From contig JBFYMQ010000001.1 of NCBI GenBank assembly GCA_041304825.1, positions 375 through 64,374 of the forward strand: DNA of 64,000 nt. Reading direction: 5' to 3'. The stretch comes from Thermoplasmatales archaeon (GTDB lineage Archaea > Thermoplasmatota > E2 > DHVEG-1). The notes beneath the pieces were generated by a model. That model searched no databases. It was not told the origin of the DNA and saw only the letters and a list, made by a program, of their open reading frames with translations. Positions 14,522 through 30,869 of this stretch are shown one piece after another. A program made the position numbers and the translations under genes. Position 1 is the stretch's first letter. Each line of letters opens with the position of its first letter.

Positions 14522-14527
14522 GACACA

Positions 14528-15550: not shown

Positions 15551-15608
15551 AAAAATCCATCGGTTTATAACCTATAGCTTTTTATACCGATTTCTCTTTT
15601 TTTCCTCT

Positions 15609-16634: not shown

Positions 16635-18020
16635 CTATGATTTGTTTTTCAAGTAGGCATCTATTGCTCTTGCCGCTCGTTTTCCTGCTCCCATCGCAAG
16701 AATTACGGTCGCAGCACCAGTTGCAATATCACCACCAGCAAAAATCTTCGGGATCGATGTACGACCCTCCTCATCGGTGATGATATTTCCATGTTTGCCG
16801 ATTTTCAACTCCTTCATCGTCTGTGGGATTAACGGGTTTGGACTTTGGCCGATTGCGACAAGAGCAGTATCAATAGCTAACTTTTCTTCAGACCCCGGGA
16901 TGGGGATCGGTCGTCTCCTCCCAGACTCATCAGGCGCCCCTAATTGCATTTTCAGATATTCAACTTCTTTAAGGATTCCTTTCTCATCTCCAATGAATCG
17001 AATCGGAGCGATCAACAACTTGAAGATTACTCCTTCCTGTTTTGCATGTTCGATTTCCTCTGCTCTTGCAGGCATCTCAGTTTCTGTTCTTCGATACAGG
17101 ATATACGATTTCTCAGCTCCTAATCGTAACGAAGTGCGTGCACAATCCATGGCGACATTTCCTGCGCCGAATGTAACAACGACTTTACCCATTTTCACCG
17201 GTGTATCATATTCAGGAAATCGATATGCCTTCATCATATTGACCCTGGTGAGGAATTCATTTGCTGAATAGACCCCATCGAGGTTCTCACCAGGGATATT
17301 TAACCAATTCGGAAGACCCGCTCCCGTTCCAATAAAAACAGCATCATAATCGTTCATTATTTCTTGGACAGTAATGGTTTTTCCCACCACGATATCGTAG
17401 TGAATATTAACCCCGAGGCTTTTTATATATTCCACTTCAGATTTCACAATGGCTTTTGGGAGACGAAACTCTGGAATACCGTACATCAACACGCCACCAG
17501 GGTCATGTAGCGCTTCAAAAATGGTGACTGCATGCCCCATGCGTGCTAGATCCCCCGCACAAGTCAATCCTGCAGGACCTGAACCTACCACTGCGATTTT
17601 CTTGCCTGTCGATTCTGGTTTTTTTGGAGGTTTTTTTCCTTTCTCCCGTTCATAATCAGCAATAAATCGTTCTAAGCGTCCAATGCCAAGCGGTTCTCCG
17701 AGTTTTTTTAACGTACATTCTCCTTCACATTGATTCTCATATGGACAGACACGGCCAGAAATCGCAGGGAGATTATTTTTTGCTTTGATGACCTCTGCTG
17801 CTTTATCAAAATCACCCTTCGCTATACATGCGACAAATCCAGGGATATCAATCTCCACTGGACATCCTTTCATACATGGTTTATTTTTACATTGCAAACA
17901 ACGATTTGCTTCTTGGATAGCTATCTCTTTGCCATACCCAAAAGGAACTTCTTTAAAATTTTTAATCCGCTCACGTGGCGATTGCTCCGGCATCTCAGGC
18001 TTTGTCCTTCGAATACTCAT
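16635..18020 (-). CDS. nfnB: NfnB / SudA-like large subunit of NADH-dependent ferredoxin:NADP oxidoreductase (GltD family).
   Basis: Has IAVVGSGPAGLTCAGDLARMGHAVTIFE and VVTFGAGNVAMD. N-terminal Cys clusters are present for 2x[4Fe-4S]. Its start overlaps the nfnA stop by 4 nt (ATGA). Confidence 0.8.
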   Translation of the reverse strand: MSIRRTKPEMPEQSPRERIKNFKEVPFGYGKEIAIQEANRCLQCKNKPCMKGCPVEIDIPGFVACIAKGDFDKAAEVIKAKNNLPAISGRVCPYENQCEGECTLKKLGEPLGIGRLERFIADYEREKGKKPPKKPESTGKKIAVVGSGPAGLTCAGDLARMGHAVTIFEALHDPGGVLMYGIPEFRLPKAIVKSEVEYIKSLGVNIHYDIVVGKTITVQEIMNDYDAVFIGTGAGLPNWLNIPGENLDGVYSANEFLTRVNMMKAYRFPEYDTPVKMGKVVVTFGAGNVAMDCARTSLRLGAEKSYILYRRTETEMPARAEEIEHAKQEGVIFKLLIAPIRFIGDEKGILKEVEYLKMQLGAPDESGRRRPIPIPGSEEKLAIDTALVAIGQSPNPLIPQTMKELKIGKHGNIITDEEGRTSIPKIFAGGDIATGAATVILAMGAGKRAARAIDAYLKNKS

Positions 18021-18838
18021 TGAACATCAGCCAGCCTACAGGCCTCTCCTTCCGCATGAACAAAACGACGATTCCGCAGCATTAAGTTATCGTAGTCTAC
18101 TTTGTGGCCATCAAACTCAGGGCCATCAACACACGCAAACTTCGTCTTCCCATCAATCGAAACACGACATCCACCGCACATCCCGGTACCATCGACCATG
18201 ATTGGATTTAGACTAACCAGGGTTTTGATATTATATTTTTTTGTAAGGGTTGATACAACCTTCATCATGATGATTGGACCGATTGCCATGACCATATCCA
18301 CTTTATGTCTGTCGATCACCTGTTGGAGGACCTCACTGACAAAACCTTTGTGACCTTTGGATCCATCATCAGTCGCAATATACGATTCATCGGAAAACAC
18401 ATGGATCTCTTTTTCTAATAACAAGAGATCTGCTGTTTTTGCTCCGAGGATGGATATCACTCGATTTCCTCCTTGTTTTAATGCTTTTATAATAGGGTAC
18501 AAAGGTGCGATACCAACCCCTCCGCCAACGCAGACGACCGTTCCGTATTTCTTGACCTCTGATGGCATGCCCAGGGGTCCTGCAAAGTTTTCGATTGAAT
18601 CACCGACATTCAGCGCACCGAGTTGTTTGGTGGTTTTACCAACCTCAAGAAAAATAATGGTAATCGATCCTTCTTTTGAGTCAGAATCAGCAATCGTTAA
18701 CGGGATTCGTTCTCCTTTTTCATCAATACGTAAGATGATGAACTGACCGGGTAAAGCTTTTTGTGCGACCAGGGGTGCTTTAATCTTCATGAGTTTGACG
18801 GAATCTGATAATAATTTTTTTTCGATGATTTCATACAT
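18017..18838 (-). CDS. nfnA: NfnA / SudB-like small subunit (PyrK-like FAD/[2Fe-2S] oxidoreductase).
   Basis: Has a ferredoxin-reductase-type FAD/NAD fold, with a C-terminal CGGCRV...C [2Fe-2S] motif. Confidence 0.8.
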   Translation of the reverse strand: MYEIIEKKLLSDSVKLMKIKAPLVAQKALPGQFIILRIDEKGERIPLTIADSDSKEGSITIIFLEVGKTTKQLGALNVGDSIENFAGPLGMPSEVKKYGTVVCVGGGVGIAPLYPIIKALKQGGNRVISILGAKTADLLLLEKEIHVFSDESYIATDDGSKGHKGFVSEVLQQVIDRHKVDMVMAIGPIIMMKVVSTLTKKYNIKTLVSLNPIMVDGTGMCGGCRVSIDGKTKFACVDGPEFDGHKVDYDNLMLRNRRFVHAEGEACRLADVQ

Positions 18839-18965: not shown

Positions 18966-21900
18966 TTAGGTCTTGCCTGGTTTCAAGATGATCGCACGAC
19001 CTGATCGTCCATCTAATTTTATATGTAATGGTGCTGAGAAATGCACGTGATCTACGTATTTCATTTTTTTTGTGTGACGTTGGTTCTCTAACCATTCACA
19101 ATCGATATAACATGATTCGGAGTTCAACGGTATATCGATATATCCGATTCCATGGCTGATCATGTTCTGGAAGAAATGTGTCCCTTGTGATGGTTTAATA
19201 TTAAAGTTTTCAAGGGCGGTTTCGATGATGACCCGCGCACCAGAGATTTGCCCCCAGCGAACAGGAATCCCCAACCACCTATCTTGAGTTCCCCATCTAC
19301 CAGGACCCATGAGAAGGTACGGGGCAGCGGATGCAACAAGAGTCTTGTTGATATTTCCAATTTCTTCAGCGATTTCGACGGTTTTTGATGAGTCGAAACG
19401 ATCAGAAGGAACATAGACAACATCTTGGATTGTATGAATTAATCCATTCCCTAATGCACGATCGGAACGGATGAATATTTGCTTCTTTGCGATTTTGTTG
19501 TCCCATCCGATATCAAGTTGCTCGGTGGAGACGACGAATGGTCGAATCTGCAGTATGCCAAAAGTCGGCCGGGTACGTTTCTGTGGATCGATATTTACTG
19601 CAAACTCAAATTCAACTGGGCATCCCATGCCTTTTTGACCAAGCAGTAAAAGGTCCTTGAGTAATGGCGCGAGGGGGAATGCATCGTATTTGAGGATTCC
19701 TGCAAACGTGATTAAGGGAAGTCCTGTCTCAGATAACCCATCCCGGATAACTCCATCGTTTCTGTCATAGCTACTTGCGACCTGGTCTAGGGAACCATCG
19801 TTTCTGATATCGGTTGTTTGTAGTTTGAGAATATGATTATCTGACGGGTCACATAATTGGAAGTCTTTATTATGGGTGTTTAAAACGTACAGCTCTCGTT
19901 GTGTATGTTCCAGGACTAATTCTGGTGAGGAAAAATCAGGGTTAATCTCAGGATACTGTGGACTGAAGCGGAAGACTTTTTCTCCACCGACCACCGCTTT
20001 CCCAAGACCAACGGCAATGTTGATGATTCCCTCCTCGGGTGTCTGATAGGTGACCGGATAGAAATTATAAGATTTCGCGACCCCAGAAAACGTAGGATAA
20101 TATCGACCGTTAAATTCAGTTCCGACAAGCTCTTGGATGATCACTGCCATTTTTTCTTCTTCGATTTTCAATGACAGGGACTCCGCGTATGCCTTTGGTT
20201 CTCTGAAAAAAACAGATGCATACACAAGTTTAATCGCCTGACAGAGCTGGTTTAACCGATTCTCATCATCCTGATGATTGTTCGGTAACAAATACGTTGA
20301 ATACATCCCTGCGAACGGATGATTTTGATAATCTTCAAGCAGGCTTGACGACCGCACTGCAAGAGGTGTACGGAAATGGTGTAAAATCACTTTTAGTTTT
20401 TGTTTTAATTCGCCGCAGATACCACATTCGAGAAACGCATTGGCTATCTCAGAGTCAGTGAATTGTTCATTTTTAAAAAAGCGATGGAGATTATGATCTG
20501 AGATAAAACGATCAAATTCAAGTGTGCCGATGACGACGGTATTTGGTACCTTGATTAGTATATTCTTATATTTATCTTCTAATTTATAATGAGTTAGAAG
20601 TGATCGCATGAATGCAAGACCTCGACCTTTTCCGCCCAGTGAATCACCACGCAATCGGGTAAACGAGGAGTCAAACTCAAACTTCTGCTCATCGAAATCG
20701 GTGATAATCCCTCTCTGTTTACTCTTTCTGGCTTCGTTAAACACTGAAATTAGATATTCTCGAACCGCGTTCAGGTCGGAGAAATCAGACACTTTTTTCG
20801 GTCGTAATTCCTTCGCAAGATCAAATTCACAGCGAGCCATGAGCCAATTTGAGAAATGATTTCGCTCAGAATGGTACAAGAGGGATTCCATGGGTATTCT
20901 CTGGAGTGCTTCTTCAAACTCCCGCATGTTTGAAGCCCTCGCAATCTCCGTCGTTTGAATATGGAGTTCCTCTGGGCTTGAGTAAATAATTTTCTTTTTC
21001 TGTTGTTTTATGTCCTTTGGCAATAAAAACAAGAAATCACCAAAACCAAGATGATTCACGAGGAAATGCTGGAAGTCTTGAACCAATGTTGGTGATTTCT
21101 TATGTAAAAAATATGCATCTAATATGTCCGCTCTTTCTCGGTTAGCAAGATCAGTAGATTGCATCATGATAGGCAGATGGATGGAATCCTTTCGAATTAA
21201 CCGCGCAAACTCAAATCCTGCTGTGGGATTGACAGAACCGTCTTTTTTAAAGGTGACATCAGATAGTATTCCAAGGATGTAATCCTTATATTTTTTATAA
21301 TAATACATCGCTTCTTCAAATGTCTCTGCGAGCAGAATTTTCGGTCGCGCTCTCCGACGTAACTGTCGTTGCATCTCGTTGAGATCCTCAGAAAGAGACC
21401 GACGAGTCTGTTGTACAACTTCGGTATATAATATCGGGAGGAACATCGAGTAATGATAGATGGAATCTTCTACCATGATTATGACACGAACATTTCCATT
21501 GACTGTGTCATAACGGACGTTCATGCTGTCTTCAACGTATTTGATAATTGCAAGAAAGAGTGTTGGATCCCCCGTCCAGGCGAAGATTTTATCGACGCCT
21601 TCTTTGACATCCTCGCGGTCCTGAAACTGGTTGATATCCGCACGATCCGTCGCAAGTAAGACAATCGGTAATTCCGGGTGGAGTTTCTTGATTTTTTTTC
21701 CAAAATCGAAAGGGTCCATTCCAATGTTTTTCGCCATAGTGATTATCAAATCGTATCGGTGTTCCTTGATTTTGTGAATTGCTTTCTCCCCTGAAAAAAC
21801 TCTGGTTACCCGCGGTGGTTGGCTCAGCAGGAGATGCTGATACTGTCCAATAACAAGCTCTGCGATCAATCCTTCTTCTTCGATGGTAAACGCATCATAC

Positions 21901-22034
21901 AAACTAGAAACAATTAGAATGTCTTTTACTCTATAGGGCATGAGGGCATGGTAAATTTGTGTACCTTGGTCGTAGGTTCCTTCGAAATCATCTTGGATTC
22001 GTGAGCTATGAAATCCTGCCTCTTCCACTTTCAT
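18966..22034 (-). CDS. Large protein (1022 aa): tandem receiver-like (pseudo-REC) N-terminal domains plus a PPDK-type PEP/pyruvate-binding ATP-grasp-like domain.
   Basis: The C-terminal half has RGDSLGGKGRGLAFM and LAVRSSSLLEDYQNHPFAGMYSTYLL. These match the PPDK_N motifs GGKGANLAEM and VAVRSSAxxEDLPxASFAGQ. The N-terminal ~300 aa show CheY-like alternating beta/alpha patterns (VKDILIVSS..., VRVIIMVED...). Confidence 0.6.
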   Translation of the reverse strand: MKVEEAGFHSSRIQDDFEGTYDQGTQIYHALMPYRVKDILIVSSLYDAFTIEEEGLIAELVIGQYQHLLLSQPPRVTRVFSGEKAIHKIKEHRYDLIITMAKNIGMDPFDFGKKIKKLHPELPIVLLATDRADINQFQDREDVKEGVDKIFAWTGDPTLFLAIIKYVEDSMNVRYDTVNGNVRVIIMVEDSIYHYSMFLPILYTEVVQQTRRSLSEDLNEMQRQLRRRARPKILLAETFEEAMYYYKKYKDYILGILSDVTFKKDGSVNPTAGFEFARLIRKDSIHLPIMMQSTDLANRERADILDAYFLHKKSPTLVQDFQHFLVNHLGFGDFLFLLPKDIKQQKKKIIYSSPEELHIQTTEIARASNMREFEEALQRIPMESLLYHSERNHFSNWLMARCEFDLAKELRPKKVSDFSDLNAVREYLISVFNEARKSKQRGIITDFDEQKFEFDSSFTRLRGDSLGGKGRGLAFMRSLLTHYKLEDKYKNILIKVPNTVVIGTLEFDRFISDHNLHRFFKNEQFTDSEIANAFLECGICGELKQKLKVILHHFRTPLAVRSSSLLEDYQNHPFAGMYSTYLLPNNHQDDENRLNQLCQAIKLVYASVFFREPKAYAESLSLKIEEEKMAVIIQELVGTEFNGRYYPTFSGVAKSYNFYPVTYQTPEEGIINIAVGLGKAVVGGEKVFRFSPQYPEINPDFSSPELVLEHTQRELYVLNTHNKDFQLCDPSDNHILKLQTTDIRNDGSLDQVASSYDRNDGVIRDGLSETGLPLITFAGILKYDAFPLAPLLKDLLLLGQKGMGCPVEFEFAVNIDPQKRTRPTFGILQIRPFVVSTEQLDIGWDNKIAKKQIFIRSDRALGNGLIHTIQDVVYVPSDRFDSSKTVEIAEEIGNINKTLVASAAPYLLMGPGRWGTQDRWLGIPVRWGQISGARVIIETALENFNIKPSQGTHFFQNMISHGIGYIDIPLNSESCYIDCEWLENQRHTKKMKYVDHVHFSAPLHIKLDGRSGRAIILKPGKT

Positions 22035-22268
22035 ATCGTCACTTCATTAGGATATAATCCCAACAATCAAACAGCTGACACTATTAGAATTTTTTTATAG
22101 TTATCAGAATGGCCTTCATATCGCATAAACATTTTATTAGCAATAAAAACATGTGTCTATCACCTCATGATATATTTTTAAATAATCCAAATGGAATACC
22201 TATTATGAGATGATGGGATATTACAAATTACATTCAATGTCGATAGACTCGATGTTGAGGATTTATCT

Positions 22269-22718
22269 ATGACTGATGAGAGCGAAACACAAGAAAAAGG
22301 AAAAACAATGGAGAAAACAGATGAGGAATCATCTCATACTGGTTCTTCCGCAGACCGTCTTGGGGCGACACAAAAAGCAGCCTGTCAGCAAATCATCAAA
22401 TCAGTATGGACCCATGAACCCTGGTTATTTTTCAAAGTGATTGTAAAAAGCAATGAAGAGATGGGCGATTATATCGCGCTACATGGGTTAGTTCCTCAAA
22501 ACGAACTCCCGGTCCATTTACGATATAAAATCCCAGAAAACGAGATATGGATCAGAGAAAACGTCTATGCAGATCTCGAACGGCGTAAAAGCATTCTTGC
22601 TCATGAGTATGCAGAACTTGATTTAATGGTCACCCAGGGGATAACCTACAAAGAAGCCCATGAAAAAGCGGAGTTCATTGAGCACCTGTATTATCCCTCC
22701 GATCCAAATTTAAAATAA
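22269..22718 (+). CDS. Hypothetical protein with an acidic N-terminus.
   Basis: A 149-aa ORF with no recognised family. It contains HEYAE. Confidence 0.3.
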   Translation: MTDESETQEKGKTMEKTDEESSHTGSSADRLGATQKAACQQIIKSVWTHEPWLFFKVIVKSNEEMGDYIALHGLVPQNELPVHLRYKIPENEIWIRENVYADLERRKSILAHEYAELDLMVTQGITYKEAHEKAEFIEHLYYPSDPNLK

Positions 22719-22777
22719 CTGTCCCCTTGATAGCCGCAGAAGACAGGATTACTTAAAGAAATTCTTTGAACAATATC

Positions 22778-23371: not shown

Positions 23372-24751
23372 TTACACGATTCCCTGATCGAGCATCGCAT
23401 CAGCGACTTTGACAAATCCAGCGATATTTGCTCCTTTGATATAATCGATTTTATCCTTGGAGACTCTTCCGTATTTCACGCAGGCCTCGTGGATGTTCTT
23501 CATGATCTGATGGAGGTGTTTGTCGACTTCTTCTGCGGTCCAGTTCAGCCGCATACTGTTCTGTGCCATCTCAAGACCAGAGACTGCGACACCACCAGCA
23601 TTGACTGCTTTGCCAGGAGCGTACATCATTTTCTCTGTGGCGAATTTCGCGGCTTCATAGGTACATCCCATGTTGGAGACTTCAGCGACTAACATACAGC
23701 CGTTCTTTGCAAGCATTTTTGCATCGTCAAGATCTAGCTCGTTTTGGGTTGCACACGGCATTGCGATATCACATTTCACGTCCCAAGGTCTCTTATTTGC
23801 ATGGAATGGAACATTGAATTTCTTTGCAAAATCCTCGACTCGATCATTGTTTGAGGCGCGCATCTCTAGCATATATTCGATTTTTTCTCCTTTGATTCCA
23901 TCCTTATCATAGATATATCCATCTGGACCGGAGAGCGTGACAACTTTACCGCCAAGCTCATTTATCTTCAATGCACAACCCCAGGCGACATTCCCAAAAC
24001 CAGAGAGTGTCACGGTCTTGCCTTTGAAACTATCATTTTTCAATTTGAGCATCTCGGAGGCAAAGTAGACACCACCATATCCCGTGGCCTCAGGTCTGAT
24101 CAGGCTGCCGCCCCAGTTCATGCCTTTTCCAGTTAAAACACCAGTAAACTCGTTTCTTAATTTCTTGTACATCCCAAATAAATATCCGATTTCTCTGCCA
24201 CCGACACCGATATCACCAGCGGGAACATCCGTATTCGGGCCGACATGACGGAATAATTCCATCATAAAGGATTGACAAAACCGCATGATTTCCATGTCTG
24301 ATTTTCCTCGGGCGTTGAAATCAGAACCGCCTTTTCCGCCACCCATCGGTAACGAAGTCAGGCTGTTTTTAAAAATCTGTTCAAAACCAAGGAACTTCAA
24401 AATACTGAGGTTGACACTCGGGTGGAATCGCAGACCTCCTTTGTATGGTCCGATTGCGCTGTTAAATTCGACTCGATACCCGCGATTCACCTGGATTTCC
24501 CCTTTATCATCGACCCAGGGGACACGGAACATGATTGCTCGTTCTGGTTCTACGAGTCGTTCCAGAATTTTTGCTTTTTTGTATTTCGGATTTTTTTCTA
24601 TAAAGGGCATGACGCTTTCTGCGAATTCTTGAACCGCTTGATGAAATTCTTTTTCACCAGGATTTTTTTCCATGACTTTTTCCATGAATGTTTTCAAATT
24701 TTCATCCATAAGGATAGCCTCCAAATGTTCGTGGTCCGTATCAGCCTCCAT
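23372..24751 (-). CDS. gdhA: Glutamate dehydrogenase.
   Basis: Has KGGLRFHPSVNLSILKFLGFEQIFKNSLT...GGGKGGSDF, the GDH signature. Confidence 0.95.
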   Translation of the reverse strand: MEADTDHEHLEAILMDENLKTFMEKVMEKNPGEKEFHQAVQEFAESVMPFIEKNPKYKKAKILERLVEPERAIMFRVPWVDDKGEIQVNRGYRVEFNSAIGPYKGGLRFHPSVNLSILKFLGFEQIFKNSLTSLPMGGGKGGSDFNARGKSDMEIMRFCQSFMMELFRHVGPNTDVPAGDIGVGGREIGYLFGMYKKLRNEFTGVLTGKGMNWGGSLIRPEATGYGGVYFASEMLKLKNDSFKGKTVTLSGFGNVAWGCALKINELGGKVVTLSGPDGYIYDKDGIKGEKIEYMLEMRASNNDRVEDFAKKFNVPFHANKRPWDVKCDIAMPCATQNELDLDDAKMLAKNGCMLVAEVSNMGCTYEAAKFATEKMMYAPGKAVNAGGVAVSGLEMAQNSMRLNWTAEEVDKHLHQIMKNIHEACVKYGRVSKDKIDYIKGANIAGFVKVADAMLDQGIV

Positions 24752-24898: not shown

Positions 24899-25363
24899 AT
24901 GAGGACAGCAGATATCGACAGAATTCTTAAAAAACATGATAATAAAAAATCTGCGTTAATACCGATTCTTCAAGATATACAATCAGAACATCGATGGCTG
25001 CCGTGTGAGACCCTTAAATATGTGTCTGAAAAACTAGACATTCCCCTCATCGATGTGTATAGCCTTGCCACATTTTATAAGTCATTTAGTCTGAAACCAC
25101 GGGGAAAACATGTTGTGACAGCATGTTGTGGAACCGCCTGTCATGTCCGAGGTGGTCCTAAAGTTTTACAAGAATTACAAAATGAATTACACATAGGTGT
25201 TGATGAGACAACACCGGATCAAAATTTCACATTAGAGACGGTTCGATGTCTTGGTGCTTGTGCACTTGGGCCACTTGTGGTCATCGACGGAAAATATCAT
25301 GGGCAGATGAACACAAAAAAAGTCGCTTCGACTTTAAAAAAATACTCAAAGAAAAAGAAATAA
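24899..25363 (+). CDS. NuoE/HoxE-like thioredoxin-fold [2Fe-2S] subunit.
   Basis: Has ACCGTACHVRG ... CLGACALGPLVVIDGKYHG. Confidence 0.8.
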   Translation: MRTADIDRILKKHDNKKSALIPILQDIQSEHRWLPCETLKYVSEKLDIPLIDVYSLATFYKSFSLKPRGKHVVTACCGTACHVRGGPKVLQELQNELHIGVDETTPDQNFTLETVRCLGACALGPLVVIDGKYHGQMNTKKVASTLKKYSKKKK

Positions 25364-25408
25364 CGCATGGTTCAACAACCTTAAAATTATCCGGATATGT
25401 GATAAAAA

Positions 25409-28400
25409 ATGAAAAAAATACAAACCGCTTCGGATCTCAAGGATGTCAGAGAAACCATTACGAAAAACACACGGAACGGAAAAACTATCGTCACACTCTG
25501 TGGTGGAACCGGCTGCCATGCTTCAGGATGTAGCACCGTTATCTCCGCATTTAAACGAGAACTGAAAAAACAAAAACTCAAGGATAAAGTTGACCTAAAA
25601 GTAACGGGCTGTCATGGTTTTTGTGAAAAAGGACCTATTGTCGTCCTTCATCCAAAAGGAATTTTCTACAAACAAGTAAAAGCTAAAGATGTAAAAGAAA
25701 TAGTTGAACAGACACTTCTCAAAGGTAAAATTGTTGACCGTTTACTCTACAACGATCCATTAACCGGGAAAAAAATCACCTTGGAAAAAGACGTACAATT
25801 CTACAAAGGACAGGAACGCATCGTCTTTGCTGACAACGGCTTGCTTGACCCCTATAAAATTGAGGATTTTATTGCTATTGGTGGATATACCGCTGCAGTC
25901 AAAGCACTGACTACTATGTCCCCGGAAAGAATCATTGATGAAATAAAAAAATCAGGGTTACGCGGACGAGGCGGCGCGGGGTTCCCCACTGGGGTGAAAT
26001 GGGAATCATGTCGAAACGCAAAAGGTTCAACAAAATATATCATATGCAATGCAGACGAAGGTGATCCCGGTGCGTATATGGACCGGAGTCTTATTGAAGG
26101 TAACCCCTTTAGTATCTTGGAAGGAATGTTGATCGGTGCGTTTGCTATCCATGCAAACCAGGGAATCATCTATGTTCGAGACGAATATCCTATCGCTGTT
26201 CAAACTATGAAAAACGCAATCACCCTTGCACGAAAATGGGGGTTCTTAGGTAAAAATATCCTTGACTCGGGTTTTGATTTTGATCTTTCGATTGTTCGAG
26301 GCGCGGGCGCTTTTGTCTGTGGCGAAGAAACCGCTCTTATTGCCTCTGTTGAAGGAAAAAAAGGAGAACCACGACAACGACCACCGTTCCCGACCCAAAA
26401 AGGACTCTGGGGGAAGCCGACGAACATCAACAACGTTGAGACCTGGGCAAATGTCCCCTATATCATCAACAAAGGATCAAAATGGTATTCGAGTATTGGA
26501 ACTGAAAAAAGCAAGGGAACCAAAATATTTTCACTTGTTGGGAAGATTAACAATACCGGTCTTGTTGAAGTTCCGATGGGAATCACACTTAAAGAAATGA
26601 TTTATAGTATTGGCGGTGGTATTCCTGAGGGTAAATCCTTTAAGGCGGTCCAAACCGGTGGACCATCAGGTGGCTGTATCCCTAAAGAACTACTCGAAAC
26701 CCCTATAGATTACGAGAAGCTCAAGGAAGTAGGCTCCATCATGGGATCTGGTGGTATGGTGGTGATGGACGAGGACACCTGCATGGTCGATGTTGCCCGG
26801 TATTTCCTTGAATTCCTTCAGGATGAATCCTGCGGGAAATGTCTCTCCTGTCGTGAAGGAACGAAACGGATGGCCGAAATCGTCACCGATATTACAAAGG
26901 GACAAGGGAAAGAAGGAGACATTGAGCTCTTACAGGAGCTTGCTACTGCCGTAAAAGATACATCGATGTGTGGTCTCGGTCAGACCGCTGCAAACCCGGT
27001 GCTGTCAACAATAAAGTTTTTCTCTGCTGAATACGAAACCCATATCATGGACCGGAAGTGTCCAGCGGGAGTATGCAGAGATCTTTATATCTCACCGTGT
27101 CAGAATGCATGCCCTGCTGGTATGAACGCACCAGGATATATTTCATTAATCGGCGAGGGGCGTTTTACAGAGGCTCTTGAACTAGCGCTTGATACAAATC
27201 CATTCCCCTCCGTCTGTGGACGTATTTGTGATCATCAATGTATGTTCAAATGTCGACGAAATCAGATAGATGAACCGGTCGCAATCCGATCACTCAAACG
27301 GTTCATCGGGGATTACGAAGAAAATGGGATAGATTATCCAAAAATCAAGCTCCCTACGTTCACCATGCCTTTCAAAGTAGCAATTGTCGGTGCAGGACCT
27401 GCTGGTCTGAGCTGCGCTTATTTCCTAGCTCGATTAGGATACAAACCAACCGTGTTTGAAAAACTCCCTGTTGCTGGTGGAATGATGGCGGTCGCAATCC
27501 CGGAGTATCGACTACCGAAAGCCATTTTGCAACGAGAAATCGATAACATAAAGAAACTTGGTGTGAATATCAAGTTGAATACCCAAGTTGGAGAAGATAT
27601 CACTATCTCCCAGTTATGGTCCCAAGGGTATCAGGCATTTTTTGTAGCCGTCGGAATGTATGGTGACAGAAATTTGGGTATCCCTGGGGAGAACCTGGAA
27701 AATGTTATTCAAGCAGTTGATTTACTCTCCGACATCAATCTGGACAAACCCGTTGTGTCACCCGCCGGCAAGAAAGTAGTCGTTATCGGAGGTGGAAATT
27801 CAGCAGTCGATGCTGCACGAACCATGCTACGCATGGGTGCAAGCAGCGTTGCCATCATCTATCGTCGAACCCGCAGAGAAATGCCAGCGTACGTCGAAGA
27901 AATCGAAGCCGCCGAACATGAAGGTGTACAAATCAAATTCCTCACCGCTCCTGAAAAAATCTTCGGTGAAAAAGGTAAGGTAAAAAGCATCGAATGCATT
28001 AAAATGCGACCAGGGGAATTCGACACCGAAGGAAGACAAAAACCAGTGCCTGTCAAAGACAGCAATTTTTTCATTGATGCGGACATTGTGGTCCCTGCGA
28101 TTGGAGAATTTTCCGATGTGTCTGGATTGTTCACCGGGCTTGATGTAGAGACGAACCGTGACGGGACGATTAAAACAGACAAACACGGCAGAACGAGTAT
28201 TCCTGGGTTATTCTCTGGAGGTGATGTCGTTTCAGGTCCTGCAACCGTCATCAACGCGATTGCATCAGGGGAGCGTACCGCAGTTACCATTGATCAATAT
28301 CTCACAAAAGATAGAACCAGAAAATATCCCTGGCGGGAGCATAAGAAAGTTGATACGTTTTTTGACCCGGAGGCAGAACCAGTCAGTTACCGGATGCAGA

Positions 28401-28567
28401 AACCAAAGACACTCTTACCTAAGGATCGACGAGGGTGTTTCGACGAAGTGGAGTTATCATTTACTCAAGCGCTTGCAAAAAAAGAGGCAAAACGATGCCT
28501 CCGCTGCGACCTTGAGCTTGAGTTACAAGAAAAACTGCAAAAAGAAAAACCATTGGAGGTGACGTGA
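25409..28567 (+). CDS. Fusion protein: NuoE-like [2Fe-2S] domain, then NuoF-like NADH/FMN/[4Fe-4S] flavoprotein, then GltD/NfnB-like FAD-NAD(P) oxidoreductase domain.
   Basis: Has CGGTGCHASGC...GCHGFCEKGP; GLRGRGGAGFPTGVKWESC; CGKCLSCREG; VAIVGAGPAGLSCAYFLARLGYKPTVFE; VVIGGGNSAVDAART. It is a single 1052-aa ORF. Confidence 0.8.
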   Translation: MKKIQTASDLKDVRETITKNTRNGKTIVTLCGGTGCHASGCSTVISAFKRELKKQKLKDKVDLKVTGCHGFCEKGPIVVLHPKGIFYKQVKAKDVKEIVEQTLLKGKIVDRLLYNDPLTGKKITLEKDVQFYKGQERIVFADNGLLDPYKIEDFIAIGGYTAAVKALTTMSPERIIDEIKKSGLRGRGGAGFPTGVKWESCRNAKGSTKYIICNADEGDPGAYMDRSLIEGNPFSILEGMLIGAFAIHANQGIIYVRDEYPIAVQTMKNAITLARKWGFLGKNILDSGFDFDLSIVRGAGAFVCGEETALIASVEGKKGEPRQRPPFPTQKGLWGKPTNINNVETWANVPYIINKGSKWYSSIGTEKSKGTKIFSLVGKINNTGLVEVPMGITLKEMIYSIGGGIPEGKSFKAVQTGGPSGGCIPKELLETPIDYEKLKEVGSIMGSGGMVVMDEDTCMVDVARYFLEFLQDESCGKCLSCREGTKRMAEIVTDITKGQGKEGDIELLQELATAVKDTSMCGLGQTAANPVLSTIKFFSAEYETHIMDRKCPAGVCRDLYISPCQNACPAGMNAPGYISLIGEGRFTEALELALDTNPFPSVCGRICDHQCMFKCRRNQIDEPVAIRSLKRFIGDYEENGIDYPKIKLPTFTMPFKVAIVGAGPAGLSCAYFLARLGYKPTVFEKLPVAGGMMAVAIPEYRLPKAILQREIDNIKKLGVNIKLNTQVGEDITISQLWSQGYQAFFVAVGMYGDRNLGIPGENLENVIQAVDLLSDINLDKPVVSPAGKKVVVIGGGNSAVDAARTMLRMGASSVAIIYRRTRREMPAYVEEIEAAEHEGVQIKFLTAPEKIFGEKGKVKSIECIKMRPGEFDTEGRQKPVPVKDSNFFIDADIVVPAIGEFSDVSGLFTGLDVETNRDGTIKTDKHGRTSIPGLFSGGDVVSGPATVINAIASGERTAVTIDQYLTKDRTRKYPWREHKKVDTFFDPEAEPVSYRMQKPKTLLPKDRRGCFDEVELSFTQALAKKEAKRCLRCDLELELQEKLQKEKPLEVT

Positions 28568-29268
28568 TGATTGAGATGTCACTTGATGGAATCCCTGTTC
28601 AGGTTGAAGAAGGATCAACGATTCTTGATGCTGCACGATTCTACGGAATAGAAATACCAACCTTATGTCATATGGACGGATTATCATCCTATGGTGCCTG
28701 TCGCCTATGCGTTGTTGAAATCGGCAAAGGAGAAAACGCAAAACTTGTCTCATCATGCACCTATCCAGCGGAGCAAGGATTGTTAGTTCGAACAAACTCG
28801 AAAAGGGTCGTCACTGCCCGGAAGATACTTGTCGAGTTGCTCGTAGCAATGTGCCCCTCCTCAAAAACCGTCCAAGATCTTGCGTCAGCTATGGAAGTAA
28901 CACAAGTGCGATTCAAGGTAGATCGAACGAACGATTGCATCCTTTGTGGTCTCTGTGTACGGATGTGTGAGGAGCAGATGATGGCAAAAGCAATCGGGTT
29001 TGTGAACCGCGGGAAGAACCGTAAAATAACCACCCCCTTTGATATGAAATCAGAGGTATGTCGAACCTGCGGTGGCTGTATGTATATTTGCCCTGCATGT
29101 GAGCTGCGTTGTCAAGGACCAAATGCAGAGACTGATCTGTGTAACGCATGTTTAAATGTTCAACCAGTATGTTTAAAGGAAGAGGATAACAAAATGTGCT
29201 TCCTTGAAACTTGCGGATGGTGTTATGAGGAATTAGGACGAAAGAAAAAGAAAATGGAGAAGAAATAG
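28567..29268 (+). CDS. NuoG N-terminal-like [2Fe-2S]/[4Fe-4S] ferredoxin-domain protein.
   Basis: Has GACRLCVVEI (plant-type 2Fe-2S) and further Cys clusters CILCGLCVRMC and CRTCGGCMYICPAC. Its ATG overlaps the upstream TGA (TGATG). Confidence 0.65.
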   Translation: MIEMSLDGIPVQVEEGSTILDAARFYGIEIPTLCHMDGLSSYGACRLCVVEIGKGENAKLVSSCTYPAEQGLLVRTNSKRVVTARKILVELLVAMCPSSKTVQDLASAMEVTQVRFKVDRTNDCILCGLCVRMCEEQMMAKAIGFVNRGKNRKITTPFDMKSEVCRTCGGCMYICPACELRCQGPNAETDLCNACLNVQPVCLKEEDNKMCFLETCGWCYEELGRKKKKMEKK

Positions 29269-29288
29269 ATGATTGGAGGGAAAAGAGA

Positions 29289-30869
29289 ATGTCATTAACA
29301 AAAATAAATGCATCTGCTGCAACGCTAAGTAAAAACAGAACTGAAGGAGCCATTAACACACTCAGTGGGATGTGTGCGACCTGTGTCGATGGGTGTATCG
29401 GCATGTGTGAAATAGGCAAATCCGCCTATCGTGGTCATGAGGTTATTTACCCACAGCCGTTTGGGATTATCACCTCGGCCTGTGAGAAGGTATACCCCGT
29501 TGACTTATCTCATTTCACGATCCTTGGTGGTGTTGTTGGTGCCTGGGGTATAGAGACGAATAGCGATCGGGCGATTTTCTCAAATGTGAACCTAGAGCGG
29601 ACTATCTGTAAGGAAAATCCTCTGAAGGTGAAGATGCCGATGATCATTCCAGGTCTTGGTTCTACGGCGATTGCGAAAAATAACTGGGAAGGTCTTGCGG
29701 TTGGTGCGGCAATCACCGGTATTCCCTTGACCATTGGTGAGAATGTCTGTGGTATGGATCCTGACGCGGAGTTCGTCAAAGGGAAAGTGAAGCATTCACC
29801 TGACCTCGAATGGCGAGTGAATCTCTATAAGAAATGGCAGCAGAAGGGGTATGGTGCCATTGTTGTTCAAGCTAACGTAGAAGATACCAGCCTTGGCGTC
29901 CATGAATATGCGATTTCAGATTTGGATGTTGATGCTGTTGAATTGAAATGGGGACAGGGCGCAAAGAACATTGGCGGTGAAGTAAAAATTAAAGAACTCA
30001 AGAGGGCACAGGAATTAAAGAAACGAGGCTATGTGGTACTCCCGGATCCAACTGATCCAAATATCATCGCTGCATTTGAAAAAGGAAGTTTCAGAGAATT
30101 TGAACGACATTCTCGTGTCGGTATGGTTTCCGAGGCTGGATTTATGAAACGTGTCAAGGAACTACGTGACTGTGGTGCGAAACGCGTTTTCCTAAAGACA
30201 GGTGCTTACCGGCCAGTCGCACTAGCACAGGCAGTGAAATTTGCATCGAAAGCAAAAATTGATTTACTGACAGTGGACGGTGCCGGTGGTGGTACCGGAA
30301 TGAGCCCTTGGCGTATGATGAATGAATGGGGCGTCCCACCAGTTGAACTTCATTCGATGCTGTACAAGTATGTCGATAAGCTCGCCAAGAACGGGGAGTA
30401 TGTCCCGGATATCGCGATTGCAGGTGGATTTACCTTCGAAGATCAAATTCTCAAAGGTCTTGCTCTTGGTGCTCCCTACTTTAAGCTTATTGGTATGGCC
30501 CGAGGGCCTCTTGCTGCAGCGATGGTTGGGAAAACCATAGGCAAGAAAATCAACGAATCCATAGTCCCTGTGTACATTGAACGTTTCGGCAATACTCCTG
30601 AGGAAATCTTTGTGACCGCCCCGGAATTGAAGAAAAAATATGGAAAAGACTTTGACAAACTCCCCACTGGTGCTATTGGTCTATATACGTATATGGAACG
30701 CTTGCATCAAGGGTTACGACAGATCATGGCTGGTTGTCGAAAATTCACCTTGGACTACATCTCACGAGATGATATCGCCTGCCTTACCAAGGAATCAGCG
30801 GACATCAGTGGTCTGCCGTACATCACGGATGTAGATGACAAAGAAGTCGCAAAAATACTTGGTGCTTAA
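29289..30869 (+). CDS. Glutamate synthase FMN-binding subunit (archaeal split GltB, domain 2). There is no amidotransferase domain.
   Basis: WGQGAKNIGGE and LTVDGAGGGTGMSP match the GltS motifs QGAKPGEGG and ISGHDGGTGASP. It has an N-terminal Cys cluster CATCVDGCIGMC and a GGAGG-like SD. Confidence 0.8.
   Translation: MSLTKINASAATLSKNRTEGAINTLSGMCATCVDGCIGMCEIGKSAYRGHEVIYPQPFGIITSACEKVYPVDLSHFTILGGVVGAWGIETNSDRAIFSNVNLERTICKENPLKVKMPMIIPGLGSTAIAKNNWEGLAVGAAITGIPLTIGENVCGMDPDAEFVKGKVKHSPDLEWRVNLYKKWQQKGYGAIVVQANVEDTSLGVHEYAISDLDVDAVELKWGQGAKNIGGEVKIKELKRAQELKKRGYVVLPDPTDPNIIAAFEKGSFREFERHSRVGMVSEAGFMKRVKELRDCGAKRVFLKTGAYRPVALAQAVKFASKAKIDLLTVDGAGGGTGMSPWRMMNEWGVPPVELHSMLYKYVDKLAKNGEYVPDIAIAGGFTFEDQILKGLALGAPYFKLIGMARGPLAAAMVGKTIGKKINESIVPVYIERFGNTPEEIFVTAPELKKKYGKDFDKLPTGAIGLYTYMERLHQGLRQIMAGCRKFTLDYISRDDIACLTKESADISGLPYITDVDDKEVAKILGA

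What the first reader, a model, noticed from the sequence alone, without database searches (positions are those of the whole stretch)
18966..22034. 1022-aa protein joining tandem receiver-like domains to a PPDK-type PEP/pyruvate-binding ATP-grasp domain
Seen: the C-terminal half carries the two hallmark PPDK_N motifs, GGKGRGLAFM and AVRSSSLLEDY..FAGMYST. The N-terminal ~300 aa look like two CheY-like receiver folds. The first appears to lack the phospho-acceptor Asp (DLIITMA), and the second retains an Asp (GILSDVTF). There is no recognisable His-containing mobile domain or PEP-utilising TIM barrel. Established: the PPDK N-terminal domain is an ATP-grasp nucleotide-binding module found in PEP synthase, PPDK and rifampicin phosphotransferase. 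Inference: this may be a signalling-regulated ATP-dependent phosphotransferase or kinase of unknown substrate. It is encoded immediately downstream of, and convergent with, nfnAB, and has its own promoter region at 22035-22268.
Basis: partly seen in the sequence, partly recalled or inferred. Interest (0 to 1): 0.6.

Follow-up and report, generated by a model that had tools for sequence, protein, structure and literature searches.

The report
Glutamate-dehydrogenase-linked response regulator with ATP-grasp output
This archaeal gene encodes a member of a very widespread but uncharacterised family of signal-receiver proteins whose output is a PEP-synthase-type ATP-binding module, and in about half of genomes across Bacteria and Archaea it sits right next to glutamate dehydrogenase, so it probably controls or partners that enzyme.

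Summary
The 1022-aa ORF (18966-22034, minus strand) and both PPDK_N motifs are real. Profile comparison confirms two receiver folds. REC1 (31-175) never has the phospho-acceptor Asp. REC2 (180-328), which Pfam misses, keeps E189/D190/D259/S293/K312. The ATP-grasp core (464-839) keeps its catalytic residues. The full architecture is conserved to about 33% identity, with relatives in at least 596 species representatives across many bacterial and archaeal phyla.

The main new result is gene linkage. A glutamate dehydrogenase gene is the immediate neighbour in 40 of 77 genome loci, and lies within 600 bp in 34 of 80 independent metagenome loci. Two distantly related GDH classes are involved. Two-component genes, or a fused weakly GAF-like sensor, accompany some members.

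Best reading: a response regulator whose ATP-dependent phosphotransfer output acts on GDH or the glutamate/2-oxoglutarate node. The substrate is unknown and no paper was found.

The parts
18966..22034 (-). Whole gene: 1022-aa REC(Asp-less)-REC-DUF5752-PPDK_N(ATP-grasp)-CTD protein
   Evidence: ORF list and translation. Full-length homologs at 58-90% identity and down to about 33% identity.
21510..21944 (-). REC1 (residues 31-175): aspartate-less pseudo-receiver. S43/S44 replace the acidic pair and M100 (21735-21737) sits at the phospho-acceptor position.
   Evidence: Pfam Response_reg over residues 67-131, 28.5 bits, below the gathering score. Profile hit to 3hv2, E 2e-6. hhalign probability 97.3% with M100 on CheY D57. 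Position 100 is never Asp in 68 diverse members.
21051..21497 (-). REC2 (residues 180-328): cryptic canonical receiver with a ~25-residue insertion after beta1. Key residues are E189/D190, D259 (21258-21260), S293 and K312.
   Evidence: hhalign probability 96.7%, E 4.6e-10, placing D259/S293/K312 on CheY D57/T87/K109. Conservation: D259 62/68, S293 63/68, K312 66/68, and 60/60 each in Bacteroidales members. PleD tandem-REC Foldseek hits. The first half (176-232) is poorly modelled.
20649..21044 (-). DUF5752-type helical module (residues 331-462) with a conserved H..RN.FS.W motif (S395 and W397 invariant)
   Evidence: Pfam PF19027: 25.2 bits against GA 23 on the full protein, 32.3 bits on the isolated domain; 39/40 and 18/22 members match. 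Domain profile hits OrfY of Thermoproteus tenax (PDB 4cso) at E 1.3e-7.
19518..20645 (-). PPDK_N ATP-grasp nucleotide-binding domain (residues 464-839). Key residues are K469, R561, E808, E810, Q829 and R831.
   Evidence: Pfam PF01326, E 1e-38. Profile hit to rifampin phosphotransferase 5hv6, E 9e-13. Foldseek hits 5hv3 (E 8e-9) and HpeI 9goj (E 3e-8). Residues invariant or nearly so.
18969..19508 (-). Family-specific C-terminal domain (residues 843-1022): alpha/beta fold with G910-P-G-R913-W-G, E938, and S-Q-G951-T-H953-F-F. The H953 codon is 19176-19178.
   Evidence: AlphaFold model pLDDT 88.8, pTM 0.88. No significant PDB fold match: best E 0.06, TM below 0.3. No PDB sequence match. Not similar to swivel domains. 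H953 present in 67/68; R913, E938 and G951 in 68/68.
23372..24751 (-). Glutamate dehydrogenase (family-I hexameric type), the conserved genomic partner. It is two genes upstream on the same strand.
   Evidence: Pfam ELFV_dehydrog_N and ELFV_dehydrog. Closest solved structures are C. symbiosum NAD-GDH 1bgv (E 4.5e-174) and E. coli NADP-GdhA 3sbo. 58-70% identical to most of the target-adjacent GDHs in other phyla; a second class is about 28% identical.
16635..18838 (-). NfnA-like (18017-18838) and NfnB/GltD-like (16635-18020) pair, directly downstream and co-directional
   Evidence: Pfam FAD_binding_6/NAD_binding_1/DHODB_Fe-S_bind, and Fer4_20/Pyr_redox_2. The same pair follows the target in L084 directly and lies further downstream in L001.
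24899..30869 (+). NuoE-like, NuoF-GltD fusion, Fer2_4/Fer4 and Glu_synthase-domain genes, divergent from GDH. These are recurrent companions of the GDH-target pair.
   Evidence: Pfam. The NuoE-like and NuoF-type genes lie next to GDH/target in L001, L082, L083 and L084.
22035..22268 (.). AT-rich divergent intergenic region upstream of the gene (29.5% G+C) with a TATA-like 'ctataaaaaaatt'; putative promoter
   Evidence: Sequence and composition. Function not tested.

Best explanation
The gene encodes an atypical two-component response regulator with an enzymatic output.

Shown:
- The domain order is Asp-less receiver, canonical receiver, DUF5752 helical module, PPDK/PEPS/RPH-type ATP-grasp domain, and a family-specific C-terminal domain carrying one near-invariant histidine.
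- The phospho-acceptor set of REC2 and the ATP-binding residues are conserved.
- The family is widespread and strongly linked to glutamate dehydrogenase genes, often together with NAD(P)H/ferredoxin flavoproteins, peptidases and aminotransferases.
- Some members are accompanied by two-component genes or carry a fused sensor module.

Inferred mechanism:
1. A histidine kinase phosphorylates D259 of REC2. The kinase is encoded nearby in some lineages. In other lineages the same weakly GAF-like sensor module is fused directly to the protein.
2. The REC1/REC2 pair then rearranges or dimerises, as the true-plus-pseudo receiver stem of PleD does, and switches on the ATP-grasp domain.
3. By analogy with every characterised PPDK_N enzyme, the ATP-grasp domain transfers a phosphoryl group from ATP to a carrier histidine. 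The best candidate is H953, which sits at the N-terminus of a helix in the C-terminal domain, 122 residues after R831.
4. The phosphoryl group then passes to the final acceptor. The most likely acceptor is glutamate dehydrogenase itself, which would be post-translational control of the enzyme. A ligand at the glutamate/2-oxoglutarate node is the alternative.

In the window organism (Thermoplasmatota) the gene lies in a GDH - target - NfnAB cluster, consistent with control of amino-acid/glutamate catabolism and its redox balance.
For: - Architecture and conservation.
- Receiver folds and alignment of the phospho-site.
- ATP-grasp similarity to RPH, HpeI, PEPS and PPDK.
- GDH linkage in genome loci: GDH is the immediate neighbour in 40/77 loci spanning Thermoplasmatota, Asgard archaea, the FCB group, Acidobacteriota, Myxococcota, Proteobacteria and Planctomycetota. 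No other neighbour family exceeds 14/81 loci.
- Two GDH classes only ~28% identical to each other are both found adjacent, sometimes flanking the gene.
- Tandem target copies flanked by GDH copies occur.
- The linkage is confirmed with independently called, Pfam-annotated genes.
- The linkage replicates on metagenome contigs: 34/80 within 600 bp, and 17/42 when both flanks are at least 1.5 kb.
- Input side: two-component genes lie within two genes in 9/81 loci. The ~130-aa sensor module of the Cloacimonas kinase is homologous (30% identity, E 1e-13) to the 1, 2 or 4 copies fused N-terminally in Bacteroidales, Prolixibacteraceae and alphaproteobacterial members. Those fused members still keep D259 and H953 in 60/60.
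Against: - No biochemical or genetic datum exists for any member. The literature searches found only a 2015 domain census.
- The C-terminal domain is not detectably related to the swivel phospho-His domain by fold or by profile. The H953 carrier role therefore rests on conservation, position and a local motif resemblance only.
- About half of the loci have no GDH within 6-8 kb.
- The window itself has no histidine kinase detectable with the cluster-2 queries, and GDH is two genes away rather than adjacent.
- There is no co-divergence between target and adjacent GDH sequences (r = -0.06).
- The full-length model is of low confidence (pLDDT 67, pTM 0.45), so inter-domain geometry cannot be used.
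Confidence: 0.5

Rival explanations
1. Signal-regulated metabolic dikinase. The ATP-grasp/CTD module phosphorylates a small molecule of glutamate or amino-acid catabolism, bound by the DUF5752 module or the C-terminal domain, rather than a protein. The receivers only tune the flux.
For: - All characterised PPDK_N enzymes act on small molecules: PEPS, PPDK, RPH, PigC/RedH, and HpeI-type or phenylphosphate synthases. This is family knowledge; the structural neighbours are.
- The neighbours are metabolic enzymes: GDH, aminotransferase, M24 and S9 peptidases, and NfnAB/NuoEF-like flavoproteins.
- DUF5752 also occurs in OrfY, which I recall as belonging to a trehalose-synthesis operon (memory; the fold link is).
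Against: - No recognisable substrate domain is present: no TIM barrel and no RIF-binding-type domain.
- No known step around glutamate or 2-oxoglutarate needs a dikinase.
- A tandem receiver input and fused sensor arrays are more typical of regulators than of pathway enzymes.
Confidence: 0.2
2. Self-contained, non-canonical His-to-Asp relay. The ATP-grasp domain autophosphorylates H953, which passes the phosphoryl group to D259 of REC2 in the same protein or dimer. The protein would then be a new kind of 'histidine kinase' built on an ATP-grasp instead of a Bergerat fold, and would signal to GDH by protein-protein contact.
For: - H953 and D259 are both conserved in almost every member.
- Most loci (72/81) have no two-component gene within two genes, and the window has no kinase detectable with the cluster-2 queries.
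- In some lineages sensor modules are fused directly to the protein, as they are in sensor kinases.
- No separate output domain of known function is present.
Against: - The receivers are N-terminal to the catalytic module, which is the response-regulator layout.
- Canonical kinases, one of them carrying the same sensor module, sit in some clusters.
- There is no precedent for ATP-grasp-to-receiver transfer.
- The carrier role of the C-terminal domain is itself unproven.
Confidence: 0.12
3. The linkage to GDH reflects only co-regulation or inherited or laterally transferred synteny. The protein is a signalling ATPase or kinase with an unrelated target.
For: - About half of the loci lack a nearby GDH.
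- There is no co-divergence signal.
- The window GDH is separated from the gene by a variable slot: a GNAT plus a small ORF here, an asparaginase-like gene in L084.
- The archaeal GDH is 58-70% identical to the bacterial target-adjacent GDHs, so the module may spread by transfer.
Against: - Immediate adjacency in 40-52% of loci across more than a dozen phyla and both prokaryotic domains, in variable orientations and orders, is far above the roughly 0.1-0.2% expected for a given gene pair (my estimate for 1-3 GDH genes in about 3000 genes).
- It holds for two GDH classes that are only ~28% identical.
- Duplicated target copies are each next to a GDH copy.
Confidence: 0.15
4. It is simply a PEP synthase or pyruvate phosphate dikinase, as some automatic annotations name relatives.
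For: Some sources name relatives 'phosphoenolpyruvate synthase/pyruvate phosphate dikinase' or 'pyruvate, phosphate dikinase'. The PPDK_N domain is present.
Against: - There is no PEP-utilizers mobile domain and no PEP/pyruvate TIM barrel in any of 40 members.
- NCBIfam PEP synthase equivalog scores are 20-52 bits against cutoffs of 598-1063, and cover only residues ~490-685.
Confidence: 0.01

Closest known systems
Rifampicin phosphotransferase (RPH; PDB 5hv1-5hv6, 5fbs) and PEP synthase / PPDK
   Same: Same PPDK_N ATP-grasp nucleotide-binding domain, and these are the best fold and profile matches. The GGKG, RSS, E-x-E and Q-x-R motifs are kept. A conserved His lies about 120 residues after the Q-x-R motif, similar to PPDK R337 to H455 (the PPDK residue numbers are from memory).
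   Different: - No detectable swivel phospho-His domain (PF00391).
- No TIM-barrel or rifampicin-binding domain.
- It has two N-terminal receivers, a DUF5752 module and an unrelated 180-aa C-terminal domain.
HpeI (PDB 9goj) and phenylphosphate-synthase-type split dikinases
   Same: A PPDK_N ATP-grasp that does not carry the swivel His domain in the same arrangement. HpeI is the second-best fold match. These enzymes show that the ATP-grasp can work with a phospho-carrier supplied separately (family knowledge).
   Different: Those are small stand-alone subunits of catabolic enzymes with a partner subunit encoded alongside. Here no PEP-utilizer partner gene is found in any locus, and the domain is embedded in a signalling protein.
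PleD-type response regulators (tandem true plus pseudo receiver with an enzymatic output)
   Same: Two consecutive receiver folds, one phosphorylatable and one not, precede a catalytic output. PleD chains align over about 325 columns.
   Different: The order is reversed, with the pseudo-receiver first. The output is an ATP-grasp instead of GGDEF. REC2 carries a ~25-residue insertion.
REC-PPDK_N architecture in the aspartate-less receiver census (Maule et al. 2015, PMC4395418)
   Same: This is the same family as seen by Pfam: Response_reg~PPDK_N, 18 sequences, 100% aspartate-less, from Bacteroidetes, Acidobacteria and Spirochaetes.
   Different: The census recorded only the Asp-less REC1 and gave no function. 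It did not report the second, intact receiver, the DUF5752 module, the C-terminal domain, the archaeal members, or the GDH linkage.
OrfY of Thermoproteus tenax (PDB 4cso) / DUF5752
   Same: Residues 331-462 are one copy of the helical module with the RN(D/H)FS.W motif. OrfY contains two copies.
   Different: OrfY is a small stand-alone protein of unknown function. Here the module is a linker or adaptor between the receivers and the ATP-grasp.
AceK (isocitrate dehydrogenase kinase/phosphatase), a functional analogy only
   Same: A dedicated regulator encoded beside the branch-point dehydrogenase it controls. This is the kind of relationship proposed here for GDH.
   Different: There is no sequence or fold relationship. 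Whether GDH is modified at all is untested.

Membership tests
Response regulator receiver domain (PF00072): REC2, residues 180-328 | (beta/alpha)5 CheY-like fold | tested here: met
   hhalign probability 96.7%, E 4.6e-10, over beta2-alpha5. PleD tandem-REC Foldseek hits. The beta1/alpha1 part (176-232) is poorly modelled, and Pfam alone does not detect it.
Response regulator receiver domain (PF00072): REC2, residues 180-328 | Phospho-acceptor Asp, acidic pair, conserved Thr/Ser and Lys | tested here: met
   E189/D190, D259, S293 and K312 align to the corresponding CheY residues. Conservation in 68 diverse members is 66, 58, 62, 63 and 66 respectively, and 60/60 for each in Bacteroidales members.
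Response regulator receiver domain (PF00072): REC2, residues 180-328 | Phosphorylated by a histidine kinase or by small phospho-donors | not testable with these tools
   Only indirect evidence: two-component genes within two genes in 9/81 loci.
Aspartate-less (pseudo) receiver: REC1, residues 31-175 | Receiver fold lacking the phospho-acceptor Asp | tested here: met
   hhalign probability 97.3% with M100 on CheY D57. Position 100 is M, T, F, V, S or L and never D in 68 members. The acidic pair is replaced by S/A/C and S/T.
PPDK_N ATP-grasp (PF01326) | Profile match above the gathering score over the whole domain | tested here: met
   133.8 bits against 27, covering profile positions 2-315 of 328. 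40/40 members match.
PPDK_N ATP-grasp (PF01326) | Nucleotide/Mg-binding residues (PPDK K22, R92, D321/E323, Q335, R337; numbers from memory) | tested here: met
   K469, R561 and Q829 are 68/68. E808, E810 and R831 are at least 90%, with R831 replaced by K in Bacteroidales members. The correspondence to PPDK residues is by motif, not by a computed structural superposition.
PEP synthase / PPDK / RPH dikinases | Swivelling phospho-histidine domain (PEP-utilizers, PF00391) | tested here: not met
   - No Pfam hit in 40 members.
- The C-terminal domain model has no PDB fold match.
- The profile search against PDB sequences found nothing.
PEP synthase / PPDK / RPH dikinases | Substrate domain (PEP/pyruvate TIM barrel PF02896, or the rifampicin-binding domain) | tested here: not met
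   No Pfam match. NCBIfam equivalog scores are far below their cutoffs and are confined to residues ~490-685.
DUF5752 (PF19027) | Profile match above the gathering score | tested here: met
   25.2 bits on the full protein and 32.3 bits on the isolated domain, against GA 23. 39/40 and 18/22 members match. OrfY 4cso at E 1.3e-7. Only about half of the 208-position profile is covered (one repeat).

The most novel reading that the evidence does not exclude
The family is a dedicated, signal-controlled GDH kinase/dikinase. That would make it a previously unrecognised post-translational control system for glutamate dehydrogenase, shared by many anaerobic and sediment Bacteria and Archaea. It would use a PPDK-type ATP-grasp together with a new, non-swivel phospho-histidine carrier domain (H953). 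A still bolder variant is that H953~P feeds the protein's own receiver Asp, making it an ATP-grasp-based histidine kinase.
Probability: 0.25. Interest if true: 0.85.

Novelty: new variant of a known kind. Interest (0 to 1): 0.68.

Why it matters
Glutamate dehydrogenase sits at the junction of carbon and nitrogen metabolism. It is the entry point for amino-acid fermentation in the peptide-degrading sediment archaea and in the FCB-group bacteria that carry this gene.

Apart from indirect systems in a few model organisms, little is known about how prokaryotic GDH is controlled after translation. A family present in at least ~600 species representatives, with more than 7,800 90%-identity clusters detected, is encoded next to gdh in about half of the cases and is wired to two-component or fused sensors. 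That gives a concrete and testable candidate regulator.

It would also extend the repertoire of response-regulator outputs to PPDK-type ATP-grasp phosphotransfer, and it would add a new conserved domain with a candidate catalytic histidine.

It may also bear on an old observation: Bacteroides thetaiotaomicron GdhA activity depends on trans-acting gene(s) downstream of gdhA (Baggio and Morrison 1996). I could confirm only the title of that paper, and I could not test any connection to this family.

Tried and rejected
1. **C-terminal domain as a PEP-utilizer swivel domain.** The idea came from the local resemblance of SQGTHFFQNMISHGIGYIDI to GGxTSHAAIVARExGIPAVV, and from the R831-to-H953 spacing. 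It survives only as a functional analogy.
3. **Co-evolution of target and adjacent GDH.** The mirror-tree correlation on BLAST identities was r = -0.06, so there is no signal.
4. **The Bacteroides thetaiotaomicron lead.** The 1996 paper is not held. BT1971, a locus tag I recalled as lying beside gdhA, is a catalase. A Bacteroidales-seeded homolog search returned only MAG proteins and no cultured Bacteroides. The lead is unverified.
5. **Fusion partners as functional clues.** The N-terminal extensions have no Pfam domain at E <= 1e-4. They proved to be tandem copies of a weakly GAF-like sensor module, which informs about the input, not the substrate.
6. **Literature.** Nine full-text searches (DUF5752; PPDK_N plus response regulator; PF01326 plus PF00072; GDH plus dikinase plus receiver; OrfY; and others) found no study of the family.
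7. **Histidine kinase in the window.** None was found by tblastn with the kinase and two-component queries from other loci.
8. **Local PEPS/PPDK/EI genes** for building a genuine swivel profile: none in the window or loci.
9. **REC2 by simpler tests.** Pairwise or shallow-profile tests were only marginal. The deeper profile was needed.

Full report
**1. The observation**

The window holds an uninterrupted 1022-codon ORF at 18966-22034 on the minus strand.

Pfam places PPDK_N (PF01326) on residues 464-839 with E = 1e-38. It gives only a sub-threshold Response_reg hit on residues 67-131 (28.5 bits against a cutoff of 30.2). It also gives an unexpected DUF5752 hit on residues 357-457 (25.2 bits against 23).

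NCBIfam models for PEP synthase, PigC/RedH and rifampicin phosphotransferase touch only residues ~490-685, at 20-52 bits against cutoffs of 600-1350. No characterised enzyme therefore aligns full-length.

The nfnAB-like pair (16635-18838; Pfam) is on the same strand and downstream of the gene, separated by a 127-bp AT-rich gap. The genes are co-directional, not convergent.

**2. Anatomy**

A 40-sequence alignment of close homologs (58-90% identity) and a 68-sequence alignment of 50%-cluster representatives (31-51% identity) define five modules.

*REC1 (residues 31-175).* This is a receiver fold. hhalign against a receiver profile, built from CheY plus response regulators in the fetched loci, gives probability 97.3% (E 1.7e-11) and puts M100 on CheY D57. 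Position 100 is never Asp in 68 members, and the acidic pair is replaced by S/A/C and S/T. REC1 is an aspartate-less pseudo-receiver.

*REC2 (residues 180-328).* Pfam does not see it, and shallow tests were only marginal. The deep profile gives probability 96.7% (E 4.6e-10), with D259, S293 and K312 on CheY D57, T87 and K109.
- The C-terminal domain and the DUF5752 region, run as negative controls, score below 1%.
- Conservation among 68 diverse members: E189 66, D190 58, D259 62, S293 63, K312 66.
- All five residues are 60/60 in a Bacteroidales clade.
- Foldseek of the full-length model also finds the tandem-receiver protein PleD over about 325 columns.
- A ~25-residue insertion after beta1 probably explains why Pfam misses the domain. 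This part is also poorly modelled (pLDDT below 50 for residues 176-232).

*Residues 331-462.* This is one copy of the DUF5752 helical module. The isolated domain scores 32.3 bits, 18 of 22 diverse members match, and the domain profile hits OrfY of Thermoproteus tenax (PDB 4cso) at E 1.3e-7. The hit aligns to both internal repeats of OrfY around the RN(D/H)FS.W motif. Its function is unknown.

*Residues 464-839.* This is the ATP-grasp domain.
- The best fold matches are rifampicin phosphotransferase (5hv3/5hv6, E ~1e-8) and HpeI (9goj), followed by PPDKs.
- The profile hits RPH at E 9e-13.
- K469, R561 and Q829 are invariant, and E808, E810 and R831 nearly so.
- By motif these correspond to PPDK K22, R92, D321/E323, Q335 and R337. 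Those PPDK numbers come from my memory of the C. symbiosum literature, not from a computed superposition.

- It has invariant R913, E938 and G951, a GPGRWG loop, and H953 in 67 of 68 members, within S-Q-G-[ST]-H-F-F.
- Modelled alone it is confident (pLDDT 88.8, pTM 0.88), and H953 sits at the N-terminus of a helix.
- It has no significant match among solved structures: best E 0.06, all TM-scores below 0.3.

**3. Is the C-terminal domain the missing phospho-histidine domain?**

Three things suggested it. The domain sits directly after the ATP-grasp. H953 lies 122 residues after R831, compared with 118 in PPDK. And there is a local pattern of [ST]-H, then a helix, then G-I-x-x-[IV].

The family therefore fails the defining feature of PEPS/PPDK/RPH-type dikinases. 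It can be said to resemble them only in its ATP-grasp. H953 remains the best candidate carrier by conservation alone.

**4. Distribution**
- The word-indexed search returned 7,892 hits at E <= 1e-3. The best 120 were all 928-1052 aa, almost all 1002-1052 aa.
- The exhaustive search of 50%-identity representatives found 1,119 proteins at E <= 1e-30. Most of the best 150 are aligned from about residue 25 to about 1020, down to 32-33% identity.
The 80 kept come from Thermoplasmatota, Heimdall- and Hermodarchaeota, Ignavibacteria, Bacteroidota, Cloacimonadota, Calditrichia, Zixibacteria, Gemmatimonadota, Eisenbacteria, KSB1, Acidobacteriota, Myxococcota, Alphaproteobacteria, Clostridia, Actinomycetota, Planctomycetota and Riflebacteria. 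A Bathyarchaeota member is P0080.
- The window's closest relatives (74-90% identity) are unnamed metagenome proteins and proteins from Euryarchaeota/Thermoplasmatota MAGs.
- Nearly all carriers are MAGs.
- The only literature trace is the 2015 census of aspartate-less receivers. It lists Response_reg~PPDK_N with 18 sequences, 100% Asp-less, from Bacteroidetes, Acidobacteria and Spirochaetes. That is consistent with Pfam seeing only REC1.

**5. Genomic context: the main new finding**

I called ORFs crudely in 81 loci and clustered them by BLASTP. One neighbour family stands out: glutamate dehydrogenase.
- GDH is present in 44 of 77 loci that have a full-length target, and it is the immediate neighbour in 40.
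- Across those loci there are 52 adjacent target-GDH pairs: 26 upstream on the same strand, 15 downstream on the same strand, and 11 on the opposite strand. Gaps are mostly 0-300 bp.
- The next most frequent cluster occurs in only 14 loci.
- All 61 cluster members are GDH homologs. Most are 58-70% identical to the window's own GDH, and a second class of about 415 aa is only ~28% identical.
- Both classes occur next to the target, sometimes flanking it (for example GDH-453 - T - GDH-415). The link is therefore to GDH function, not to one lineage.
- Tandem target copies lie beside or between GDH copies in L016, L055, L068 and L082.

Independently called, Pfam-annotated genes confirm the pattern.
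- Thermoplasmatales CP070798 has glutamine synthetase (opposite strand), GDH, T, a NuoE-like gene, and an NfnAB-like pair further downstream.
- A Bacteroidales contig has GDH | T(long) - T - GDH - NuoE-like - NuoF-like.
- Bathyarchaeota SMTZ-80 has T - x - GDH - NuoE-like - x - a NuoF-GltD fusion of 1051 aa.
- An 84%-identical relative of the window has GDH - x - T - NfnA - NfnB, with the NuoE/NuoF-GltD/Glu_synthase genes divergent from GDH.
- The window has the same set: GDH at 23372-24751, a GNAT and a small ORF in a variable slot, T, and NfnAB. On the other strand it has NuoE-like, the 1052-aa NuoF-GltD fusion, an Fe-S protein and a Glu_synthase-domain protein.

The linkage replicates on an independent collection. 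Of 80 metagenome loci, 40 have a GDH, and in 34 it lies within 600 bp. Among the 42 loci with at least 1.5 kb on both sides, 23 have a GDH, and in 17 it lies within 600 bp. For a genome with 1-3 gdh genes in about 3000 genes, chance adjacency would be roughly 0.1-0.2% (my estimate).

Other recurrent neighbours are an aminotransferase and M24 and S9-type peptidases, which fits amino-acid catabolism.

The window GDH is a family-I hexameric enzyme. It is about equally close to the NAD-specific C. symbiosum enzyme and to NADP-specific E. coli GdhA, so cofactor preference cannot be read off.

Two caveats apply. About half of the loci have no GDH nearby. And target and adjacent-GDH identities do not co-vary (r = -0.06).

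**6. The input side**

A heterogeneous cluster of two-component genes occurs in 14 loci, and within two genes of the target in 9. It includes HisKA and HisKA_3 kinases and NarL-, NtrC- and OmpR-type regulators.

Bacteroidales, Prolixibacteraceae and some alphaproteobacterial members are 1150-1560 aa because they carry 1, 2 or 4 tandem copies of a ~130-aa N-terminal module. That module is homologous (30% identity, E 1e-13) to the sensor region of the HisKA kinase in the Cloacimonas cluster T-T-GDH-HK-NtrC. The kinase copy is weakly GAF-like, below the Pfam cutoffs.

The same sensor is thus wired either through a kinase or by direct fusion. This supports the view that the receivers are the input and the ATP-grasp/C-terminal module is the output. 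Even the fused forms keep D259, S293, K312 and H953 in 60/60.

The window protein has no such module, and the window has no kinase detectable with these queries.

**7. Mechanism**

*Shown.* The domain order, the conserved phospho-site and ATP-site residues, the conserved histidine, and the GDH and two-component/sensor linkage.

*Inferred.*
1. Phosphorylation of D259 rearranges or dimerises the REC1/REC2 stem, as in PleD.
2. This activates the ATP-grasp domain.
3. By analogy with all characterised PPDK_N enzymes, the ATP-grasp loads a carrier histidine. H953 is the candidate.
4. The phosphoryl group then goes to GDH (preferred) or to a metabolite at the glutamate/2-oxoglutarate node.

I put about 0.5 on this overall picture. 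Within it, I put roughly 0.25 on GDH itself being the phospho-acceptor.

*Rivals.*
- A regulated small-molecule dikinase (0.2).
- Linkage without a direct functional relation to GDH (0.15).
- A self-contained ATP-grasp to His953 to Asp259 relay (0.12).
- A bona fide PEP synthase or PPDK (about 0.01; refuted by domain content).

**8. Comparison with what is known, and novelty**

The protein works like a response regulator with an enzymatic output, in the PleD-like layout. Its catalytic core resembles the ATP-grasp of RPH, HpeI, PEPS and PPDK.

It is a member of the receiver and PPDK_N superfamilies. It is not a member of the PEPS/PPDK/RPH dikinase family in the strict sense, because the swivel His domain and the substrate domain were tested and not found.

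The bare architecture was catalogued in 2015, so the family is not unknown. The following appear to be unreported in the literature available here:
- the second, intact receiver;
- the C-terminal domain with its conserved histidine;
- the DUF5752/OrfY link;
- the sensor fusions;
- the archaeal members;
- and, above all, the pan-phylum linkage to glutamate dehydrogenase.

I rate it a new variant of a known kind, with interest 0.68. A specialist in two-component signalling or nitrogen metabolism would want to test it, and the experiments are simple.

One old observation may be relevant. Baggio and Morrison (1996, J. Bacteriol. [quoted passage not shown] I confirmed only the title, through the reference list of PMC4539542. 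The paper is not held. I could not show that Bacteroides encodes a family member, so this remains a lead and not evidence.

Noticed in passing
window 24899-30869 (+): A gene set of a NuoE-like 2Fe-2S protein, a 1052-aa NuoF-like plus GltD-like fusion, a Fer2_4/Fer4 protein and a 526-aa Glu_synthase-domain protein, divergent from GDH. The NuoE-like and NuoF-type genes recur beside GDH and the target in Bathyarchaeota (L083), Bacteroidales (L082) and Thermoplasmatota (L001, L084). It may be a flavin-based NAD(P)H/ferredoxin (Bfu/Stn-like) or archaeal GOGAT-like complex coupled to GDH.
   Followed up: partly
window 22269-23308: A variable slot lies between GDH and the target. Here it holds a GNAT acetyltransferase (22778-23308, minus strand) and a Pfam-less 149-aa ORF (22269-22718, plus strand). 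In the 84%-identical relative L084 the slot holds an asparaginase-like 162-aa gene instead.
   Followed up: partly
L044, L046, L049, L059, L062, L078, L080, L081, and L016 15363-16511: A ~130-aa, weakly GAF-like sensor module occurs in 1, 2 or 4 tandem copies at the N-terminus of long family members. It occurs once at the N-terminus of a HisKA kinase in a Cloacimonas target-GDH cluster. Its ligand is unknown and it has no Pfam family above cutoff.
   Followed up: partly
PDB 4cso (OrfY) versus window 20649-21044: OrfY of Thermoproteus tenax contains two internal repeats (residues ~46-113 and ~134-213) of the same RNDFS.W helical module that occurs once in the target. DUF5752 therefore seems to be a duplicated unit.
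   Followed up: no
window 23372-24751 versus L-series GDH genes: The archaeal GDH is 58-70% identical to most target-adjacent bacterial GDHs, whereas the target itself is only about 40-45% identical to its bacterial relatives. This suggests either strong constraint on GDH or lateral spread of gdh between domains.
   Followed up: no
window 11075-16625: A secreted PQQ-like beta-propeller repeat protein (11075-12643), a probable CTP synthase (12887-14521) and two divergent UbiA-family prenyltransferases (14528-15550 and 15609-16625). The UbiA pair and the CTP synthase lie in the same order in the relative L084.
   Followed up: no
L082 7001-13702; L016, L024, L055, L068: Tandem duplicates of the target gene occur, often a long sensor-fused copy followed by a short copy. 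In L082, L016, L055 and L068 they lie beside or between GDH genes; L024 has no GDH nearby.
   Followed up: partly
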